A stretch of 64,000 nucleotides of DNA from sequence record NC_048748.1. One strand, 5' to 3'. Both the position numbers and the translations under genes were made by a program. The notes below the pieces were generated by a model. The model did no database searches, was not told the origin of the DNA, and saw only the letters and a list, made by a program, of their open reading frames with translations. Shown piece after piece: positions 119 through 10,438 of the stretch; the stretch's first letter is position 1; each line of letters starts with the position of its first letter. The DNA is from Escherichia phage vB_EcoS_HdH2.

Positions 119-853
119 TTACGCAACTTTTAATTTCTCGATATATTGTTGCGGGCTGCAACTATATTCTGCGCGTTCTTCTTCTGTCATACTTTCCCAA
201 CATAATTGCAAGCGATCGGCTAGGAACTGATAATCATTATCATCCTCAAGAGATTCATCAATAAAGGTTTCACCTATCAATGTGACGCCGATTGATAGAA
301 TATCGTTAATAGCTTGCGCGTCCAGCGTTTTAAATCCATATGATGCCGCCGCTGATAGCACGCCTTTATGATCGTCGATCATCGTGAAATCAGCGTTCGG
401 GTATAGCTGTTTGAATAGCTCAAAATAATGGCTTTTATAAATAGCGTCCTTACTGTGGTATATTTCGCTAACTTTATCAGCCGTAAAATATTTGTGAAGT
501 GTATCGCGGGAAAATACACGGATATTACTATCCCCACGCCCTCGCAATCCTTGCTTGCGCAAATAATAATAGTCCGACTTGCTCATCAGTCGAGCGGTAC
601 AAATAATGTTTAACGTGTTGGCGTCATTCATGCACTGGCGCATATATGTAACAAGCGGCAATAAAGTATCCTGCATTATTAAATCATGTTTACATGCTTC
701 ATTTTTATACTTATTTAAATCTAAATTCCCATCGCTATCAAAGCAAGGCGCTACGCGATGAAATGAATTGATGATTGTTCCGTCCAGATCCCAAATCATG
801 ACGCGGGAAATATGCGGGAAATTACGGGTAATATTCGTTTTAACTTGATTCAT
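119..853 (-). CDS. dmp: 5'-deoxyribonucleotidase Dmp (HAD-type phosphatase)
   Basis: 244 aa; N-terminal DLDGT motif (HAD motif I); position and size match T5 dmp. Confidence 0.75.
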   Translation of the reverse strand: MNQVKTNITRNFPHISRVMIWDLDGTIINSFHRVAPCFDSDGNLDLNKYKNEACKHDLIMQDTLLPLVTYMRQCMNDANTLNIICTARLMSKSDYYYLRKQGLRGRGDSNIRVFSRDTLHKYFTADKVSEIYHSKDAIYKSHYFELFKQLYPNADFTMIDDHKGVLSAAASYGFKTLDAQAINDILSIGVTLIGETFIDESLEDDNDYQFLADRLQLCWESMTEEERAEYSCSPQQYIEKLKVA

Positions 854-1921: not shown

Positions 1922-3595
1922 TTACTGTACAAAGAATTTACCGTTCTTAAAGTCGATCAAAGTACGCTGGCCGTTCGCATAGGTAATAACATGCGTTTGC
2001 GTCCAGCTTGACGCGCCAACGTTGTAACCCATATCCAGACTACCAGACACGCCGGCAGTGTATACGCCGCCGTAAATGCTGGCGGTGTGAGTGTGCCCCG
2101 TGTTTAATTTGCCCAATTTCTTAAATTGCTTCGGATTGCCACGGCTCCCGTTAATGCCATTGTGACCGTGTACGCCGCATTCAATGCCTGCAATTTTAAA
2201 TGATTGGTCAGTGGTCAGGAAAATAGCGTTAAATTCACAACCTGCAACCTTGCGCAGCGCATAATCTAGCACGTTGAAAGTATCGTCTTTTTCTGCAATA
2301 GCTCCGTAAATCGCAGCATTAAGGCGGTGATATAGTTCCGCGTTGGCTGGATCGTCTTTAATGTTAGCATTACGATCATCAAGCCAACGGGATAACGCCA
2401 GATCATGGTTAGATTCAACAATGATCGTTTGAGCAAAATCGCGCTCCATTGATTCCAGTACGCGCCCGGTATCGATCAAATCATCAATAACCTTATCACG
2501 TCCGGCGGCGTATTGTTTTGCTAGGAATACACCAGACGCACGATTATGATGATTGCGTGATGTAAAATCATGCACGTCATGCACAAACTGATATTTTGGC
2601 TTCAGAATATCAACAAGCCCGTAGGTGTCACCATGCCCCCACGACGCAGCGGCGCACTCCTCATCTAATTTTTCAGCGTGAATATCGCCATATTGTAAAC
2701 CTAAAACGTGCCCCGTTGTTTCATAGCATCCGGCGGGAGTGGCGCAAATATTCAAATCGTAAAACATGCCGCTTTCGTCCATCGTTTCAAGCTGGCGAAC
2801 AAAAAATTCCCCGTCCTCGTCGAACTCAACGACAAGCGCACCAAAGTTATGTAGCGCCTCGGCCTTTTGCCCTGCTTTCTGCTGGATGTAGTTTTTAAGC
2901 GTTGCCGTGCCCGTTGAATACATGCGGCGCACTACTTCACCTTTTAAAGCTGGCACGCTTTCGGCGGTGATTTTAGCCGCCCCGATTGCCAGACCTTCCA
3001 GATTAAGCGCCGTTGCAGTTTCAGCGAATCCAGAAAGCGGATAATCTGCGGTAGGTAACACGTTAATCTCCGCCATGAAAGCAAAACGGCGATTATTTAA
3101 AAACACGTTTTTGCTGCAAATATATTTATCAAATGCAGAATCATATTTGATTCCGTCCGCGCCCTCACCATTTTGGAATCCGTTTTTATTATAAATATAC
3201 TTAGAAACAAGCAAATCAGCGCCGATAAACTGGGCATATTGTTCAAGCGAGGCTAAAAAGTTTTTATGCGGGAAAGTATTATTCTGAATCGAGGTAATAA
3301 TAAAGCGTTTGCCTTGTTTTACTTCCCAGCTTTCCACCGTGCTAGAAATAACTCCGGCGGCTTCAGGGCGGTCATCGTTTTTAATAGCTTTTACAGTTTT
3401 TGCCGCTTTTGGTTTCGCTGGTTTATTTGCTTCCAGCCAATCACAAATAGCGGTGGAATGCTTTGGAGTATCGTAAACCGCTTTCGAAATATCGTCGCAT
3501 ACTTCCAGTTTAGTAGCGCGCAGACGTTTACCATAGAAATTGAAGTCAGCGGCAAGGTTCAGGATAACGGTTTGTTTTTCTGCGGAAATAATCAT
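1922..3595 (-). CDS. A1: Pre-early protein A1 (metallophosphoesterase-like)
   Basis: 557 aa; GDIH and HGHNG...GHTH phosphoesterase-like motifs; size and position match T5 A1. Confidence 0.7.
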   Translation of the reverse strand: MIISAEKQTVILNLAADFNFYGKRLRATKLEVCDDISKAVYDTPKHSTAICDWLEANKPAKPKAAKTVKAIKNDDRPEAAGVISSTVESWEVKQGKRFIITSIQNNTFPHKNFLASLEQYAQFIGADLLVSKYIYNKNGFQNGEGADGIKYDSAFDKYICSKNVFLNNRRFAFMAEINVLPTADYPLSGFAETATALNLEGLAIGAAKITAESVPALKGEVVRRMYSTGTATLKNYIQQKAGQKAEALHNFGALVVEFDEDGEFFVRQLETMDESGMFYDLNICATPAGCYETTGHVLGLQYGDIHAEKLDEECAAASWGHGDTYGLVDILKPKYQFVHDVHDFTSRNHHNRASGVFLAKQYAAGRDKVIDDLIDTGRVLESMERDFAQTIIVESNHDLALSRWLDDRNANIKDDPANAELYHRLNAAIYGAIAEKDDTFNVLDYALRKVAGCEFNAIFLTTDQSFKIAGIECGVHGHNGINGSRGNPKQFKKLGKLNTGHTHTASIYGGVYTAGVSGSLDMGYNVGASSWTQTHVITYANGQRTLIDFKNGKFFVQ

Positions 3596-6614: not shown

Positions 6615-7592
6615 ATGAGGCTTTATAAACCAGATAACGCAACCGTCTTAAAAGGTGCATTGCGCAACCTGCTGGATGGTAGCAGAACAACCAGCATTAA
6701 ACACTTTGTTAACAAGGCCGAAGATATTCACCAAAATTTTTTTGATGATTTCGACGCCTATGATATGAGTAGCTTTTTGCAACTATATAAGCAAGGGGCA
6801 ACGATTATCTTATATAATCGAGATAATCACCTGCTTACTAGCAGGGGGCCGGACACTGATTTCATAATCGTAAAAGGTAACACAGTAAAAGCCTATGATA
6901 CTGGGGCGGGCTTAGAAGTTTTTTCAATAGAAAACTATGAAGCCAACCCCAATGATCTTTATGACGTTGAAAACTTTCTTGATTCATTTTGGCGTTATTT
7001 ATCCGTTGGCTGGAATCGGTCAATTGGTGACGGGTATCGTCTGGCGGCTGTAATGGCTTTTGATGATAACGGTAATTTTTTGTTACCGTCGGAAGTATAC
7101 CCATACGTATATGATGGGGATATAGAAAGCGCGGGCTTTTCTTTCTGGAAGGAGGAGGATCAGCCTATTGACAACACGGAAAAACATGCTGTAAATTCTA
7201 ACACTCAAACCATTGAAAACAAAGGAAAAAATGCCATGACCAAGATCGCTAATATCGTTGCCGCTAATAAGTCCGCCGTTGTAAATGCTGCAAAACTGGA
7301 AGCGGGTAAAATTGCACTGACTCAAATTACGAAAGTAGCGGCTAAAAAAGCACCGTTTATTATCAAGGGTTATATTGATACGCCGATTGGTCGGGTAGTG
7401 ATTGCCAACCTGCTGAGCGTAGCGGTTGACCAGTACTCCCCTAGCAACCAAAAGGCGAAAGCGGTAGCGGATGCAGCTATGGAAGCGGCTATGTTAGAAA
7501 TGGTACAAAGTTTTAACATCGCTGAAATGATTGACGAAATGGTGAAAGGTATTGATATTTCTACTTTTACCGTTAACACCGAAAACGAGTAA
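6615..7592 (+). CDS. hypothetical protein
   Basis: 325-aa ORF, RBS gagggagg upstream; Ala/Lys-rich C-terminal half. Confidence 0.55.
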   Translation: MRLYKPDNATVLKGALRNLLDGSRTTSIKHFVNKAEDIHQNFFDDFDAYDMSSFLQLYKQGATIILYNRDNHLLTSRGPDTDFIIVKGNTVKAYDTGAGLEVFSIENYEANPNDLYDVENFLDSFWRYLSVGWNRSIGDGYRLAAVMAFDDNGNFLLPSEVYPYVYDGDIESAGFSFWKEEDQPIDNTEKHAVNSNTQTIENKGKNAMTKIANIVAANKSAVVNAAKLEAGKIALTQITKVAAKKAPFIIKGYIDTPIGRVVIANLLSVAVDQYSPSNQKAKAVADAAMEAAMLEMVQSFNIAEMIDEMVKGIDISTFTVNTENE

Positions 7593-7630
7593 TAGTTAAC
7601 CTAGTGTAAAGTTTTGTAAAGGTCGCCATA

Positions 7631-7657
7631 ATCGGCGACCTTTTTTGTTATAATGCC
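7631..7657 (+). terminator. Rho-independent terminator
   Basis: ggtcgccataatcggcgacc hairpin followed by tttttt. Confidence 0.6.
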
Positions 7658-7710
7658 TTTACACCGTTCGAGGACGGTTGAAAATTTTCCCAAAAATTTG
7701 GAGGCTTAAA

Positions 7711-7941
7711 ATGGTTGCTTATTCTTCTTCTGACTCTCTTTTCACTGGAAAAGGTTGGGTGTCCAATCGCTGGATCATTCAAGAAATGGTGCAAGAATAC
7801 GGCATTGCTAAAACTTACACTACCATTCAGGCGCTTTATGATAATGATCAGATTGATCAGCAGACAGCTGGCTTTTTGCTGGATACCCTGAAGGCGGAAC
7901 ATTGTACTAAAAAACAAGCCGCCAAAATCGTTTTAATGTAA
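7711..7941 (+). CDS. hypothetical protein
   Basis: ORF 7678-7941 trimmed to the ATG preceded by ggagg. Confidence 0.45.
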   Translation: MVAYSSSDSLFTGKGWVSNRWIIQEMVQEYGIAKTYTTIQALYDNDQIDQQTAGFLLDTLKAEHCTKKQAAKIVLM

Positions 7942-7983
7942 TTAATAACGGGGCGTTATTTTCGCCCCACTAACTAGGAGAAT

Positions 7984-8139
7984 GAAAATGGTTATTTTTC
8001 GAGCTATTCTGGCGGGTATCTTGGGCGCTATTTTATCTTTGTTTGCAATAGCTTTCGACGTTCACGCGGTTATTATTGGCGCGGGTATCGCTGTTTTTTC
8101 TTATTTGCTGGGCTGCATGAATAAAGGAGAATAAAAATG
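7984..8139 (+). CDS. small hydrophobic peptide (about 51 aa)
   Basis: Below the 60-aa ORF-track cutoff; aggag RBS; hydrophobic. Confidence 0.35.
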
Positions 8140-8349
8140 ATCCGCAACGTTTCTCTTGCTCGTTCAAAAGGTTTTAAGCTGGTGGACGTTAACACGTTCG
8201 AACGGGAAGATTGTAAAATCGAATATATAGCACGGAATAAAAACGCCTTCCGTGTTACAGAAAAGAAATTCGATAAACGGGGTAACGTGATAGCTGAAAC
8301 GGTTAAATATTTTGCCACCTTTTACGCTGCGTTTCGTGGGGTACTATGA
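8137..8349 (+). CDS. hypothetical protein
   Basis: 70 aa; aaaggag RBS. Confidence 0.45.
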   Translation: MIRNVSLARSKGFKLVDVNTFEREDCKIEYIARNKNAFRVTEKKFDKRGNVIAETVKYFATFYAAFRGVL

Positions 8350-8472
8350 AAAGCGTTATTGTTATTCTCCTTGCAATGGTTGGCGGTTTTACCGCCACCT
8401 TATTTAAGAATGATCCCCTTTTACTGGGGATTTTTATGCTTTTATCTGGTTATCTGATCGGGAGGTTATAAA
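8346..8472 (+). CDS. small hydrophobic peptide (about 41 aa)
   Basis: Read from sequence; start overlaps previous stop (ATGA). Confidence 0.3.
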
Positions 8473-8817
8473 ATGGTAATTTATGAGGGCAACCGCTTTG
8501 TTACTAATTGCCGCCCGGCATTATTAGCAAACTACTTAAACCAGCTTTCACCTGAATATAAGGGCGTTGTTAATATTTACGAGGGAAAAGCGCATTATAA
8601 GATTAATGCGGTCGTTGCCCGTGAACTAGCATTTCAATTTTTGACCTTCGCATCGTGTGATATTCAGGTCATGGGTGAAGCATTAATAGCAGAAAATGAA
8701 GACGATTTTATTAATATTTTCCGCAAGGTATGCACCGAGCGCCTGATCATGAAAGGTGTATATATTCAATCAACGGCGGAAAGTATTGAAACGGCTTTTC
8801 GAAAGGTGGCACAATGA
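8473..8817 (+). CDS. hypothetical protein
   Basis: 114 aa; gggagg RBS. Confidence 0.5.
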   Translation: MVIYEGNRFVTNCRPALLANYLNQLSPEYKGVVNIYEGKAHYKINAVVARELAFQFLTFASCDIQVMGEALIAENEDDFINIFRKVCTERLIMKGVYIQSTAESIETAFRKVAQ

Positions 8818-8918
8818 GATTATATATTTTCGCGGGTAATGTTGAGGCTGCAAATGATTCCGCTGGTGGCGATAATGTTCGCCACTATTGGCAAAAATAT
8901 ATTTACTAGGAGCTATAT

Positions 8919-9114
8919 AATGGGCAAGAATATTATTGTGACCAAAATCAGTACAATGGTTGACGTTTTTTACGTGCCCGATACGCCAGAAAACCGGCAA
9001 GCGGTCGAGCGGGGCGATTATGGTAGCGTTATTTATGATCACGATGGCTATTATCGGCATTTGGTCGATTCCTATGGGGAGGAGGAGAAGATCACGCATC
9101 GACTACCAGACTAA
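8919..9114 (+). CDS. hypothetical protein
   Basis: ORF 8839-9114 trimmed to the ATG after taggag. Confidence 0.4.
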
Positions 9115-9191
9115 TAATCACGGGGCGCAACTATCAGGGAGTGCCCCAATTCCCAAATGAGAATCATTCTCATTTGACCGCGCCCGTGATG

Positions 9192-9251
9192 GTTAGCCCG
9201 CTAACGATTAGGGTGTTACGTGTTGCCTTGTGTGATCGTTAGCGGGCTAAC
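9192..9251. repeat. 17-bp inverted repeat hairpin (gttagcccgctaacgat / atcgttagcgggctaac), each arm internally palindromic
   Basis: Read directly. Confidence 0.6.
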
Positions 9252-9373
9252 TAATTTTTAAGCCTCCTCCAATTTTGCCCTTGTTTTAGTATCCCCACCA
9301 AAATTAAACGCGTTAGAATGCGATTCAGGACGTTTTAGCGGTATATTAGAATTATTCACTACATAGGAATACT

Positions 9374-9413
9374 GTATAAATATACAGTAGGATAAGCTGT
9401 GGATAAGTCTGTT
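9374..9413. repeat. Right 40-bp inverted repeat with DnaA boxes (TGTGGATAA at 9399-9407 and 9472-9480)
   Basis: Reverse complement of 6308-6347. Confidence 0.65.
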
Positions 9414-9675
9414 AATAACGCCTCAAAATGGCTAGGATTCTGTCAAGTCAAATCGTGCTGTTAATAAGTCTGTGGATAACTTAAATAACAGTGTTTCTCA
9501 CTTCCATTCTTAAACGAGAATGATTCTCATTTGCATTCCACTGTCTAACCGATAATCATTTCCTTTCTTAAATGAGAATCATTTCACTTTTTGAATAGTT
9601 CTCATTTCACTTCTTAAATGAGAATCATTATCATTCGCATTCCACTTCTTAAATGATAATGATTCTCATTCAAAG

Positions 9676-9695
9676 TCGCAGGGCAATTGCCCTGC
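9676..9695. repeat. Perfect 20-bp palindrome cgcagggcaattgccctgcg
   Basis: Read directly. Confidence 0.6.
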
Positions 9696-9700
9696 GCTTT

Positions 9701-10438
9701 TGTGCAAATCCGACATGTGCTCCAAGGGTTACGTGCTGGCGTGTATGTGCAAATCCGACAATTTTTGGTAGTGTGCAAATCCGACCCGAAAAATTTATAA
9801 ATTCGTGAGAGTGACGAATCTGTCTCCTAAAAACTCCAGCAATCACGAACTGCGTTCGAATCCTGTGGAATTAGCTAGAGTATGTGCAAATCCGACATGT
9901 GTTGAGCTGTGCGAATCCGATGAAATTTTTGTGACTTCGATGAGAGGGTGTGTGATTGTATAGGTTTGAGGAGAAGATGAGAGAGCGAGAAAAATTTGGG
10001 AGGCTAGAAGGATGTGGGTGCAGGATTGGTGCGGAGCACCTGATTTGCGGGGATTTTGGGGAAGAGTTGAGAAGATTTGGGAAGATTTGAGATAGGTGCA
10101 GAAAAAGCGAAATTTTATTAGCTAAATGGGGCAAAATAGCTTGACAAGTGAAAATTCTTGTGGCTCTAAAAACTCAGGCAATCATGGGCCTTCGGCCCGA
10201 AATAATGCTGCCATTTTCAAGAGATTATATGTTCCTAAAAACTTAGGCGTTTGTGCAAATCCGACCATAAATTTCTAGAAATGCAGTGTGCAAATCCGAC
10301 AGTAATTTCTGGAAATGTGTTTTCAAAAAATGTCTCCTAGAAATAACCGCCCTCCCTATAACCGCCCTGTATAGGAAAACCGGCCTAGGATATTTATAGT
10401 AGATGAGAAACTGCCCTAGAACATGTGCAAATCCGATT
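9701..10438 (+). repeat. Array of at least 7 copies of TGTGCAAATCCGA(C/T) in non-coding DNA
   Basis: Copies at 9701, 9746, 9772, 9883, 10252, 10287, 10425 (degenerate 9908); one extra copy inside a CDS at 12127. Confidence 0.65.
9960..10130 (+). repeat. Polypurine (G/A-rich) tract, almost C-free on the plus strand
   Basis: Strong strand composition asymmetry; ORF 9871-10134 here is low-complexity and probably spurious. Confidence 0.5.

What the first reader, a model, noticed from the sequence alone, without database searches (positions are those of the whole stretch)
7984..8472. Tiny hydrophobic peptides with strong RBSs in the pre-early plus-strand block
At least two ORFs of about 40-50 aa (7984-8139, 8346-8472), below the ORF-track cutoff, encode single-helix hydrophobic peptides. 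They are translationally coupled to neighbours through overlapping stop/start codons. Such peptides in first-injected DNA often act on host membrane proteins or defences.
Basis: seen in the sequence. Interest (0 to 1): 0.4.

Follow-up and report, generated by a model that had tools for sequence, protein, structure and literature searches.

The report
Two tiny T5-phage membrane protein genes
The two short hydrophobic reading frames are real, conserved genes for miniature inner-membrane proteins in the first-injected DNA of a T5-like phage: one is the known, dispensable gp013, the other an optional unstudied gene that T5 itself lacks, and both are already annotated in public phage genomes.

Summary
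The window is the left end of a T5-like phage (Tequintavirus), and the finding lies inside the first-step-transfer pre-early block. Both ORFs exist, but the coordinates are slightly off: ORF1 is 7988-8134 (48 aa) and ORF2 is 8346-8471 (41 aa). Both are under purifying selection in the stated frame (dN/dS 0.10 and 0.19; flanking genes 0.06-0.07). They are the two most hydrophobic of the 102 ORFs of 38-60 aa in the window.

ORF1 is the short-loop form of T5 gp013 (phrog_5607). A 2026 preprint reports that T5 gp013 has two predicted TM segments, is dispensable, and produces lysed ghost cells when over-expressed.

ORF2 (phrog_19184) is absent from T5. It occurs in 158 of about 435 T5-like phage records and has no relatives outside this phage group. 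It sits in a variable slot between genes 014 and 015 that holds other, unrelated mini-membrane genes in relatives.

ORF2 is a two-helix hairpin, not a single helix. Its SD is weak and badly spaced. Only the 014/ORF2 junction truly overlaps (ATGA).

Function remains inferred: accessory membrane-acting host-takeover factors. The features are real but largely already annotated, so interest is modest.

The parts
7950..7968 (+). GGGGCG-TTATTTT-CGCCCC hairpin in the 46-nt gap between the gene 012 homologue (stop at 7941) and ORF1. It has no T-run, so it is not a typical intrinsic terminator.
   Evidence: MFE -15.1 kcal/mol for 7936-7995; z -1.9. The same hairpin is present in T5.
7976..7980 (+). Shine-Dalgarno AGGAG for ORF1, 7 nt before the ATG at 7988.
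   Evidence: duplex dG -7.3 kcal/mol; 6% of random 20-mers reach -6.
7988..8134 (+). ORF1: a 48-aa small membrane protein, the short-loop orthologue of T5 gp013 (T5.013, phrog_5607). Hydrophobic segments are residues 2-23 and 27-44, split by D24-V25-H26. The in-frame ATG at 7982 is an unlikely start.
   Evidence: E 2.3e-30; dN/dS 0.10.
8124..8129 (+). SD AAGGAG for gene 014, embedded in the last codons (K-G-E) of ORF1. The ORF1 stop is at 8132-8134 and the 014 ATG at 8137.
   Evidence: dG -8.7 kcal/mol. The C-terminal KGE is nearly invariant in the family.
8137..8349 (+). Homologue of T5.014 (70 aa, phrog_4227). It separates the two small ORFs.
   Evidence: 435 phage records.
8346..8471 (+). 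ORF2: a 41-aa two-helix membrane hairpin (phrog_19184). Its ATG overlaps the 014 stop (ATGA, 8346-8349). Helix 1 is residues 2-19, the turn is K21-N-D-P24, and helix 2 is residues 24-40. It is absent from T5.
   Evidence: E 2.6e-26; 158 records; dN/dS 0.19; pLDDT 92.
8460..8465 (+). SD GGGAGG for gene 015, embedded in the last codons (G-R-L) of ORF2. The ORF2 stop is at 8469-8471 and the 015 ATG at 8473.
   Evidence: dG -11.0 kcal/mol. The junction is nearly identical to T5's empty 014/015 junction.
8473..8817 (+). Homologue of T5.015 (114 aa, phrog_4379), the downstream partner in the coupled chain.

Best explanation
Both ORFs are genuine, translated pre-early genes of a T5-like phage. They encode miniature inner-membrane proteins that are accessory, not essential, host-takeover factors.

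ORF1 (7988-8134) is the short-loop allele of T5 gp013. It most likely forms an N-in/C-in two-segment hairpin that inserts into the inner membrane within minutes of first-step DNA transfer. At high dose it perturbs envelope integrity.

ORF2 (8346-8471) is an optional cassette gene for a 41-aa Gly-rich helical hairpin. It is translated mainly by ribosomes terminating on gene 014 (ATGA overlap) and passes ribosomes to gene 015 through the SD built into its last codons. It occupies a recombination-prone slot where related phages carry nothing, ORF2, or unrelated mini-membrane genes. I infer that ORF2 likewise acts in the inner membrane, on membrane permeability or energetics or on a membrane-embedded host partner, with a benefit that depends on host or competitor.

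Shown here: the genes, their coding constraint, the junction architecture, the distribution, and the predicted hairpin for ORF2.
Shown by others, for T5 gp013 only: toxicity with lysis-like ghosts, and dispensability.
Inferred: membrane insertion, topology, and any physiological role, especially everything about ORF2's function.
For: Identity of the region:
- The window is a T5-like left end with the same gene order as T5.

Coding status:
- dN/dS is 0.10 (ORF1) and 0.19 (ORF2) in frame, against 0.5-3.3 off-frame. Third-position variation dominates.
- Between the two ORF2 allele classes, synonymous sites are saturated (pS 0.63-0.75) while pN is about 0.3.
- Full-length PHROG matches: phrog_5607 and phrog_19184.
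- The two ORFs are the hydrophobicity outliers of the window.

Structure and topology:
- ORF2 AF2 hairpin with pLDDT 92.
- Invariant G13, G14, K21, D23, G28, G35, G39 and R40; N22 and P24 nearly invariant.
- K2 and R40 would flank the cytoplasmic ends of a hairpin.
- gp013 relatives carry an 11-aa polar insertion exactly between the two hydrophobic halves. The T5 record notes 'two transmembrane domains'.

Translation signals:
- SDs and junction spacing.

Experiments by others:
- T5 013 is toxic from pBAD24 and gives shrunken, DAPI-negative ghosts. The hegG-017 block is deletable.
- The gp013 homologue bas33_0175 is transcribed at about 537 TPM during Bas33 infection.

Cassette behaviour:
- The 014|015 slot is empty in T5 (1 nt). 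In relatives it holds ORF2 (123 nt), 'MIQQIK..' (115 nt), 'MERAIVK..' (106 nt), or two of these in either order (242 nt).
- Record counts are 435 (014), >=333 (ORF1), 158 (ORF2), 52 and 37.
- gp013 short, long and absent forms assort independently of slot content.
Against: - There is no direct evidence of translation or membrane localisation for either protein in this phage.
- Mahata et al. saw no toxicity of T5.013 from pBAD33, so the lytic phenotype may be an over-expression artefact common to small hydrophobic peptides.
- AF2 models the short gp013 form as one 43-residue helix, not a hairpin.
- ORF2's own SD is weak and poorly spaced.
- The only expression record found for an ORF2 homologue (bas33_0173) shows a value of 1.6 against 325-594 for its neighbours. 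This is probably a counting artefact for a 126-nt feature with 150-nt reads, but I could not verify that.
- T5 and about 64% of relatives do without ORF2. The multi-deletion T5 lacking 013 is viable.
Confidence: 0.6

Rival explanations
1. Superinfection-exclusion or anti-competitor factors. The small membrane hairpins, made first after injection, would block DNA entry of secondary phages at the inner membrane or protect against lysis from without. This would be analogous in role to T4 Imm/Sp, P22 SieA or HK97 gp15.
For: - They are expressed from the first DNA to enter the cell.
- They are small inner-membrane proteins.
- Presence or absence is patchy, and unrelated cassettes are interchangeable at one slot.
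- ORF2 shows two deeply diverged alleles (61% nt identity) between flanks that are 84-86% identical. This pattern is typical of genes in an arms race.
- They are dispensable in single-phage laboratory infections.
The comparison with Imm, Sp, SieA and gp15 rests on general knowledge, not on a test made here.
Against: - There is no sequence or profile similarity to any known exclusion protein (Pfam and NCBIfam gave nothing).
- T5's known exclusion function is the Llp lipoprotein acting on FhuA (general knowledge; reference listed).
- No experiment addresses this role.
Confidence: 0.17
2. Counter-defence factors. The peptides would bind and neutralise membrane-embedded effectors or sensors of host abortive-infection or defence systems, so they would pay off only on hosts that carry those systems.
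For: - The accessory distribution, the variable slot and the allele divergence are the same as for the exclusion hypothesis.
- Pre-early timing is when anti-defence functions are needed.
- T5-like phages are known to meet a membrane-depolarising Abi (the ColIb ibf/abi locus triggered by A2; PMC10644984).
Against: - No homology to any known anti-defence protein was found.
- No genetic data exist.
- The ColIb system is triggered by A2, and no role of 013 is reported.
- The ORF2 family has no relatives outside T5-like phages, so nothing can be transferred by homology.
Confidence: 0.13
3. ORF2 is mainly a translational coupler or leader. Its role would be to tune ribosome delivery to gene 015, and the peptide itself would be unimportant.
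For: - ATGA overlap with 014, a strong SD for 015 embedded in its last codons, and a 1-nt gap.
- The right junction is almost identical to T5's direct 014/015 junction.
- All alternative cassettes keep the same start-overlap and end-SD layout.
Against: - The amino-acid sequence is constrained (dN/dS 0.19; 21 invariant residues including Gly, Lys and Asp positions).
- The protein is still recognisable at 55% identity after synonymous saturation.
- T5 couples 014 to 015 without it.
Confidence: 0.05
4. The 126-nt insert is primarily an RNA element (attenuator or terminator hairpins at 8381-8397 and 8412-8432), and the ORF is incidental.
For: - Two terminator-like hairpins fall inside ORF2.
- The window's ORF2 RNA folds more stably than synonymous resamples (z -2.3).
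- The Bas33 RNA-seq value at the homologue is low.
Against: - There is no covariation: 0-1 double compensatory changes, and changes are wobble pairs or disruptions.
- Excess stability is not reproduced in other homologues (z +0.24 to -1.7).
- Hairpin 2 is degraded in the Epseptimavirus alleles.
- The stems coincide with conserved Gly-Gly/Thr-Ala and Asp-Pro/Gly codons.
- Clear frame-specific purifying selection.
- Gene 015 downstream is expressed in Bas33.
Confidence: 0.03

Closest known systems
Bacteriophage T5 gp013 (T5.013, YP_006841; phrog_5607)
   Same: ORF1 is its positional orthologue, between genes 012 and 014 in the FST plus-strand operon. The TM1 and TM2 sequences are near-identical, and it has the same C-terminal KGE that encodes the SD of 014.
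   Different: The window carries the 48-aa short-loop allele (D-V-H between the hydrophobic halves). T5 has 59 aa with an 11-aa polar loop (IQDSYCGLVNTKP). The toxicity and ghost phenotype was measured only for the T5 allele.
phrog_19184 hypothetical proteins of T5-like phages (e.g. bas32_0181 of phage IrisVonRoten, 100% identical; HWD09_gp013 of NBEco001)
   Same: ORF2 is a full-length member with the same position and the same ATGA overlap with gene 014.
   Different: None in sequence. The family has no assigned function, is absent from T5, and is left unannotated in several RefSeq records.
Pinholins / class II holins (e.g. the phage 21 S21 two-TM holin) - comparison from general knowledge
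   Same: These are small two-TM phage proteins rich in Gly/Ala faces. Over-expression compromises the envelope, as reported for T5 gp013.
   Different: ORF1 and ORF2 are expressed pre-early rather than late and are not next to an endolysin. They give no Pfam holin match and are dispensable for lysis. T5 completes lysis without the 013 block.
Small membrane superinfection-exclusion proteins (T4 Imm and Sp, P22 SieA, HK97 gp15) - comparison from general knowledge
   Same: These are small inner-membrane proteins made early, non-essential in single infections, and variable among relatives.
   Different: No sequence or profile similarity was found, and no exclusion phenotype has been tested.
Bacterial type I toxins and small hydrophobic peptides (Hok, TisB, Ldr, Ibs) and Pmp3/YqaE two-TM proteolipids - comparison from general knowledge
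   Same: Similar size (30-55 aa), extreme hydrophobicity, and toxicity on over-expression.
   Different: There is no antisense-RNA partner or toxin-antitoxin context. The ORFs are encoded within a coupled phage operon. There are no Pfam or NCBIfam hits and no relatives among 1.84 billion representative proteins beyond T5-like phages.

Membership tests
T5 gp013 family (phrog_5607) | Full-length profile match. | tested here: met
   hmmscan E 2.3e-30, residues 1-48 on profile positions 1-48 of 49. 64-98% identity to database members.
T5 gp013 family (phrog_5607) | Conserved position between genes 012 and 014 in the FST plus-strand operon. | tested here: met
   Gene order compared with T5, NBEco001, ESCO30 and IrisVonRoten.
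T5 gp013 family (phrog_5607) | Two transmembrane segments. | tested here: inconclusive
   For two segments: hydrophobic segments of 22 and 18 residues, and the loop-insertion site in long alleles. Against: AF2 gives one continuous helix for the short allele. No dedicated TM-topology predictor was available.
T5 gp013 family (phrog_5607) | Toxicity or loss of cell integrity on ectopic expression. | not testable with these tools
   Reported for the T5 allele only and contradicted.
phrog_19184 (ORF2 family) | Full-length profile match and position between 014 and 015. | tested here: met
   E 2.6e-26, residues 1-41 on profile positions 1-41 of 46. Same slot in all loci that carry it. 158 phage records.
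Holins / pinholins | Match to a holin family profile, late expression next to an endolysin, and a requirement for lysis. | tested here: not met
   No Pfam hit at E <= 0.1. The location is in the pre-early FST operon. The block containing 013 is deletable.
Known small toxic or proteolipid families (Hok/Gef, Ldr, TisB, Pmp3/YqaE) | Profile match to the family. | tested here: not met
   No Pfam or NCBIfam match. The profile search of 1.84 billion representatives returned only the two T5-like clusters. No PDB fold match.
Superinfection-exclusion proteins (Imm, Sp, SieA, gp15) | Homology to a known member, or a demonstrated block of secondary infection. | tested here: not met
   The homology part was tested and is negative: no Pfam or NCBIfam match at all. 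The functional part cannot be tested with these tools.

The most novel reading that the evidence does not exclude
The 014|015 junction, and the neighbouring 012|014 slot, of T5-like phages would be a dedicated cassette site. There, unrelated mini-membrane-protein genes (ORF2 in two deep alleles, 'MIQQIK..', 'MERAIVK..', gp013 short and long, a 31-aa 'MSITT..' peptide) are swapped while translational coupling is preserved. Together they would form a diversifying pre-early arsenal aimed at inner-membrane targets, such as competitor-phage DNA entry or membrane-bound defence effectors. That would be a new class of phage host-range or competition determinants.
Probability: 0.2. Interest if true: 0.55.

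Novelty: new member of a known kind. Interest (0 to 1): 0.3.

Why it matters
Small membrane proteins are often missed or inconsistently annotated. ORF2 is unannotated in several RefSeq T5-like genomes. It is also invisible to work on T5 itself, because T5 lacks it. T5 pre-early genes set up host takeover in the minutes before the rest of the genome enters, and most remain without a function. Here two tiny ORFs are shown to be selected coding genes. One of them sits in a swap-prone slot that holds several unrelated mini-membrane genes. This gives concrete, cheap targets for knock-out, expression and exclusion assays. On present evidence, however, they are ordinary accessory 'moron-like' genes of known families with no demonstrated mechanism.

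Tried and rejected
- Common origin of ORF1 and ORF2. Profile-profile comparison gave probability 2.8%, with only a 10-residue C-terminal resemblance (S-x-YL-x-G). No demonstrable homology.
- Pfam, NCBIfam and PDB. No family hit for either peptide. Foldseek of the ORF2 model against the PDB gave zero matches.
- Distant relatives. The word-indexed search and the exhaustive profile search of 1.84 billion representatives found only T5-like phage proteins. One hit labelled Salmonella Derby comes from a 108,815-bp contig, which is the size of a whole T5-like phage genome.
- RNA-element reading of ORF2. The hairpins lack covariation, and the excess folding stability is not reproducible across homologues.
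- Start at 7982 for ORF1. Rejected because of the 1-nt SD spacing and because that ATG is absent in many relatives.
- Expression evidence from Bas33 RNA-seq and proteomics (PMC13250531). The gp013 homologue is transcribed. The ORF2 homologue's near-zero value is probably a feature-length artefact. The list of detected proteins was not in the text held.
- Davison 2015 review (PMC4743489). Not held. Davison's 2020 preprint, the CRISPRi-ART paper and the BF23 paper say nothing about these genes.

Full report
**What the window is**

Megablast of 7600-9200 finds 417 phage records, all T5-like (Tequintavirus and Epseptimavirus), with 90-93% identity for the listed full-length matches. The gene order matches T5's left terminal repeat:
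- dmp at 119-853(-) and A1 at 1922-3595(-).
- A plus-strand block: the 011 homologue (6615-7592, DUF7566), a strong terminator at 7618-7643, then 012 (7711-7941), ORF1, 014 (8137-8349), ORF2, 015 (8473-8817) and further small genes.
- A repeat-dense region at 9147-10436 that corresponds to T5's injection stop signal.

**Checking the observation**

The two ORFs are real.

ORF1:
- The ORF listing gives 7982-8134. The SD AGGAG (7976-7980) lies 1 nt from the ATG at 7982 and 7 nt from the ATG at 7988.
- Relatives often lack the first ATG, and their annotations start at the second.
- ORF1 is therefore 7988-8134, 48 aa.

ORF2:
- It is 8346-8471, 41 aa.

Junctions:
- 012->ORF1: a 46-nt gap with a GC hairpin, so no coupling.
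- ORF1->014: TAA at 8132-8134 and ATG at 8137. The SD of 014 (AAGGAG) is encoded by ORF1's final K-G-E codons.
- 014->ORF2: ATGA overlap.
- ORF2->015: TAA at 8469-8471 and ATG at 8473. The SD of 015 (GGGAGG, dG -11.0 kcal/mol) is encoded by ORF2's final G-R-L codons.
- ORF2's own SD is only GGGGU ending 2 nt before the ATG (dG -6.1 kcal/mol).

'Strong RBS' therefore holds for ORF1 only, and 'overlapping stop/start' holds for one junction only.

**More than chance?**

Of 102 Met-to-stop ORFs of 38-60 aa in the six frames of the window, these two are the most hydrophobic. They are the only ones with GRAVY >= 1.4.

I used 34 IMG/VR loci anchored on gene 014 plus GenBank loci to compute Nei-Gojobori statistics:

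| Region | dN/dS in frame | dN/dS off-frame | Variable sites by codon position (1/2/3) |
|---|---|---|---|
| ORF1 | 0.10 | 0.6 and 3.3 | 13/4/22 |
| ORF2 | 0.19 | 0.5 and 1.2 | 15/7/22 |
| 014 | 0.07 | - | 11/8/49 |
| 015 | 0.06 | - | 36/20/93 |

Epseptimavirus ORF2 alleles fetched later are 51-56% identical in protein. Their synonymous sites are saturated (pS 0.63-0.75) while pN is about 0.3. Both ORFs are protein-coding genes under purifying selection.

**What they are**

ORF1:
- It matches phrog_5607 end to end (E 2.3e-30).
- It is the positional orthologue of T5.013, whose record reads 'contains two transmembrane domains'.
- The family comes in two forms. The short form, as here, has 48-51 aa with G/D-V-H between the hydrophobic halves. 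The long form, as in T5, has 59-61 aa with an 11-aa polar insertion (IQDSYCGLVNTKP) at exactly that point.
- The insertion marks a loop and argues for a two-segment hairpin.
- AF2 drew the short allele as one 43-residue helix (pLDDT 80), so the topology of the short form is not settled in silico.

ORF2:
- It matches phrog_19184 (E 2.6e-26).
- AF2 with a 25-sequence alignment gives a confident hairpin: pLDDT 92, helices at residues 2-19 and 24-40.
- The turn K21-N-D-P24 and G13, G14, G28, G35, G39 and R40 are invariant or nearly so.
- 'Single-helix' is therefore wrong for ORF2 and probably wrong for ORF1.
- Profile comparison finds no homology between the two families.

**Distribution**

tblastn against 50,697 phage records gives:

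| Query | Records |
|---|---|
| 014 | 435 |
| ORF1 | at least 333 (TM1 is masked by the low-complexity filter) |
| ORF2 | 158 (119 at >= 80% identity; 39 at 51-56%; the four of this low-identity class examined are Epseptimavirus-type or Salmonella-phage loci) |

- T5 itself has no ORF2. Its 014 stop and 015 start are 1 nt apart.
- Neither a word-indexed search of 5.8 billion proteins nor an exhaustive profile search of 1.84 billion representatives finds ORF2 relatives outside these phages. Only two 50%-identity clusters exist.
- There are no Pfam, NCBIfam or PDB-fold matches.

**A variable slot**

Across relatives the 014|015 junction takes these forms:
- Empty (1 nt).
- ORF2 (123 nt).
- An unrelated 40-41-aa single-TM peptide 'MIQQIK..' (115 nt; 52 records).
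- A 35-aa peptide 'MERAIVK..' (106 nt; 37 records).
- ORF2 plus MIQQIK, in either order (242 nt).

Features of the slot:
- Every ORF2 or MIQQIK cassette that directly follows 014 begins with the ATGA overlap. The MERAIVK cassette starts at an ATG that overlaps 014's TAA stop by 2 nt.
- Every cassette ends with an SD for the next gene.
- ORF2's right junction (TCGGGAGGTTATAAAATGG) is nearly the same as T5's empty junction (CGTGGAGTGTTATAAAATGG). This suggests gain or loss by recombination at the repeated SD-stop-start motif. That is an inference.
- The ORF1 slot also varies: short, long, absent (56-57 nt), or replaced by a 31-aa 'MSITT..' peptide. It assorts independently of the ORF2 slot.
- Between the window and Epseptimavirus loci, 014, 015 and ORF1 are 77-86% identical in DNA (84-86% in L038 and L039) but ORF2 only about 61%. 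The two ORF2 alleles are far older, or faster evolving, than their surroundings.

**Rival: an RNA element**

Two terminator-like hairpins lie inside ORF2.
- Their stems coincide with conserved Gly-Gly/Thr-Ala and Asp-Pro/Gly codons.
- They vary only by wobble or disruption, with 0-1 compensatory double changes.
- Excess folding stability relative to synonymous recodings is seen in the window (z -2.3) but not consistently in homologues (z +0.24 to -1.7).

I reject this reading.

**What is known experimentally**

- Mahata et al. 2021 cloned T5.013 with its native RBS in pBAD33 and did not list it among the toxic genes (PMC8201957).
- Annor et al. 2026 (bioRxiv 10.64898/2026.04.02.716235) found 013 toxic from pBAD24 in strains F and DH5alpha. 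They saw shrunken, DAPI-negative ghost cells and attributed this to its two predicted TM domains. A T5 mutant lacking hegG-017, which includes 013, is viable and is the only mutant with smaller plaques. In one-step growth and virulence it grouped with the other dmp-deleted mutants.
[quoted passage not shown] This agrees with my count.
- In Bas33 RNA-seq (PMC13250531), the gp013 homologue bas33_0175 reads about 537 TPM.
- The 126-nt ORF2 homologue bas33_0173 reads 1.6, while its operon neighbours read 325-594. With 150-nt reads and the CLC counting tool this is probably an artefact, but I could not verify it. It says nothing about translation.
- No study addresses ORF2.

**Most likely mechanism**

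- Shown: both are selected coding genes for very hydrophobic 41-48-aa products in a tightly linked pre-early operon.
- Inferred: they insert into the inner membrane as N-in/C-in hairpins. Basic residues R5 in ORF1, and K2 and R40 in ORF2, sit at the presumed cytoplasmic ends. Conserved Gly/Ala/Ser faces would allow close helix packing or oligomerisation.
- For gp013, the only phenotype on record is envelope damage at high dose.
- I therefore commit to 'accessory membrane-acting host-takeover factors'. ORF2 would be translated by termination-reinitiation from 014.
- The patchy distribution, cassette swapping and deep ORF2 alleles fit a host- or competitor-dependent benefit, either superinfection exclusion or counter-defence. 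These are listed as rivals because nothing discriminates between them yet.

**Novelty and score**

- ORF1 is a known gene family with a recently described phenotype.
- ORF2 is an already annotated hypothetical protein. It is 100% identical to bas32_0181 of phage IrisVonRoten and has no known function.
- I did not find the slot pattern described in the literature I could search, but it is ordinary phage mosaicism.
- The finding is real and mostly ordinary. Interest is 0.3.

Noticed in passing
relatives: L024, L026, L027, L028, L029, L031, L032, L036, L040 (junction between the 014 and 015 homologues); corresponds to window 8346-8472: The slot that holds ORF2 in the window holds unrelated mini-membrane genes in relatives. 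These are a 40-41-aa 'MIQQIK..' peptide (52 phage records) and a 35-aa 'MERAIVK..' peptide (37 records). Some loci carry ORF2 plus MIQQIK in either order. All keep the overlap with the 014 stop and the SD before 015.
   Followed up: partly
window 8346-8471 versus L028, L038, L039, L040: ORF2 exists as two deep alleles with 61% nt and 55% aa identity. The flanking genes 014 and 015 and ORF1 are 77-86% nt identical between the same phages.
   Followed up: partly
window 7950-7968: A conserved GC hairpin (GGGGCG/CGCCCC) lies between gene 012 and ORF1 and has no T-run. It is also present in T5. It could be an mRNA processing or stability element, or a weak attenuator.
   Followed up: partly
window 8381-8397 and 8412-8432: Two terminator-like hairpins lie inside ORF2. 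Their stems are built from conserved Gly-Gly/Thr-Ala and Asp-Pro/Gly codons. No covariation was found.
   Followed up: yes
window 9147-10436: Dense families of direct and inverted repeats (CAAATGAGAATCATTCTCATT-like, 6 copies; TGTGCAAATCCGA, at least 6 copies). They match the position of T5's injection stop signal region.
   Followed up: partly
window 8137-8349 and 8473-8817; T5 record NC_005859 (L003): RefSeq and PHROGs attach 'endonuclease nicking abasic sites generated by Ung' to the 70-aa T5.014 family. The experimental papers name the nickase 015. This is a likely annotation or numbering mismatch, and I did not resolve it.
   Followed up: partly
window 8814-8909: A 31-aa non-hydrophobic ORF (phrog_22819) overlaps the 015 stop by ATGA. 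T5 has a different gene (T5.016) there. This is another variable small gene in the same coupled chain.
   Followed up: no
L036 and L037 (IMGVR_UViG_2974620381), match at 2501-2711: The gene 014 homologue is frameshifted to 34 aa in this phage genome. This is either a pseudogene or a sequencing error.
   Followed up: no
Bas33 dataset (PMC13250531, Dataset S01): bas33_0173: The ORF2 homologue shows an RNA-seq value of 1.6, while adjacent genes of the same operon show 325-594. This is probably a counting artefact for a 126-nt feature.
   Followed up: partly
phage records: Some T5-like records are labelled Listeria, Campylobacter or Klebsiella phages (e.g. Campylobacter phage A148, Listeria phage LM 4-11-1). 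The host labels look doubtful for near-identical Tequintavirus or Epseptimavirus sequences.
   Followed up: no
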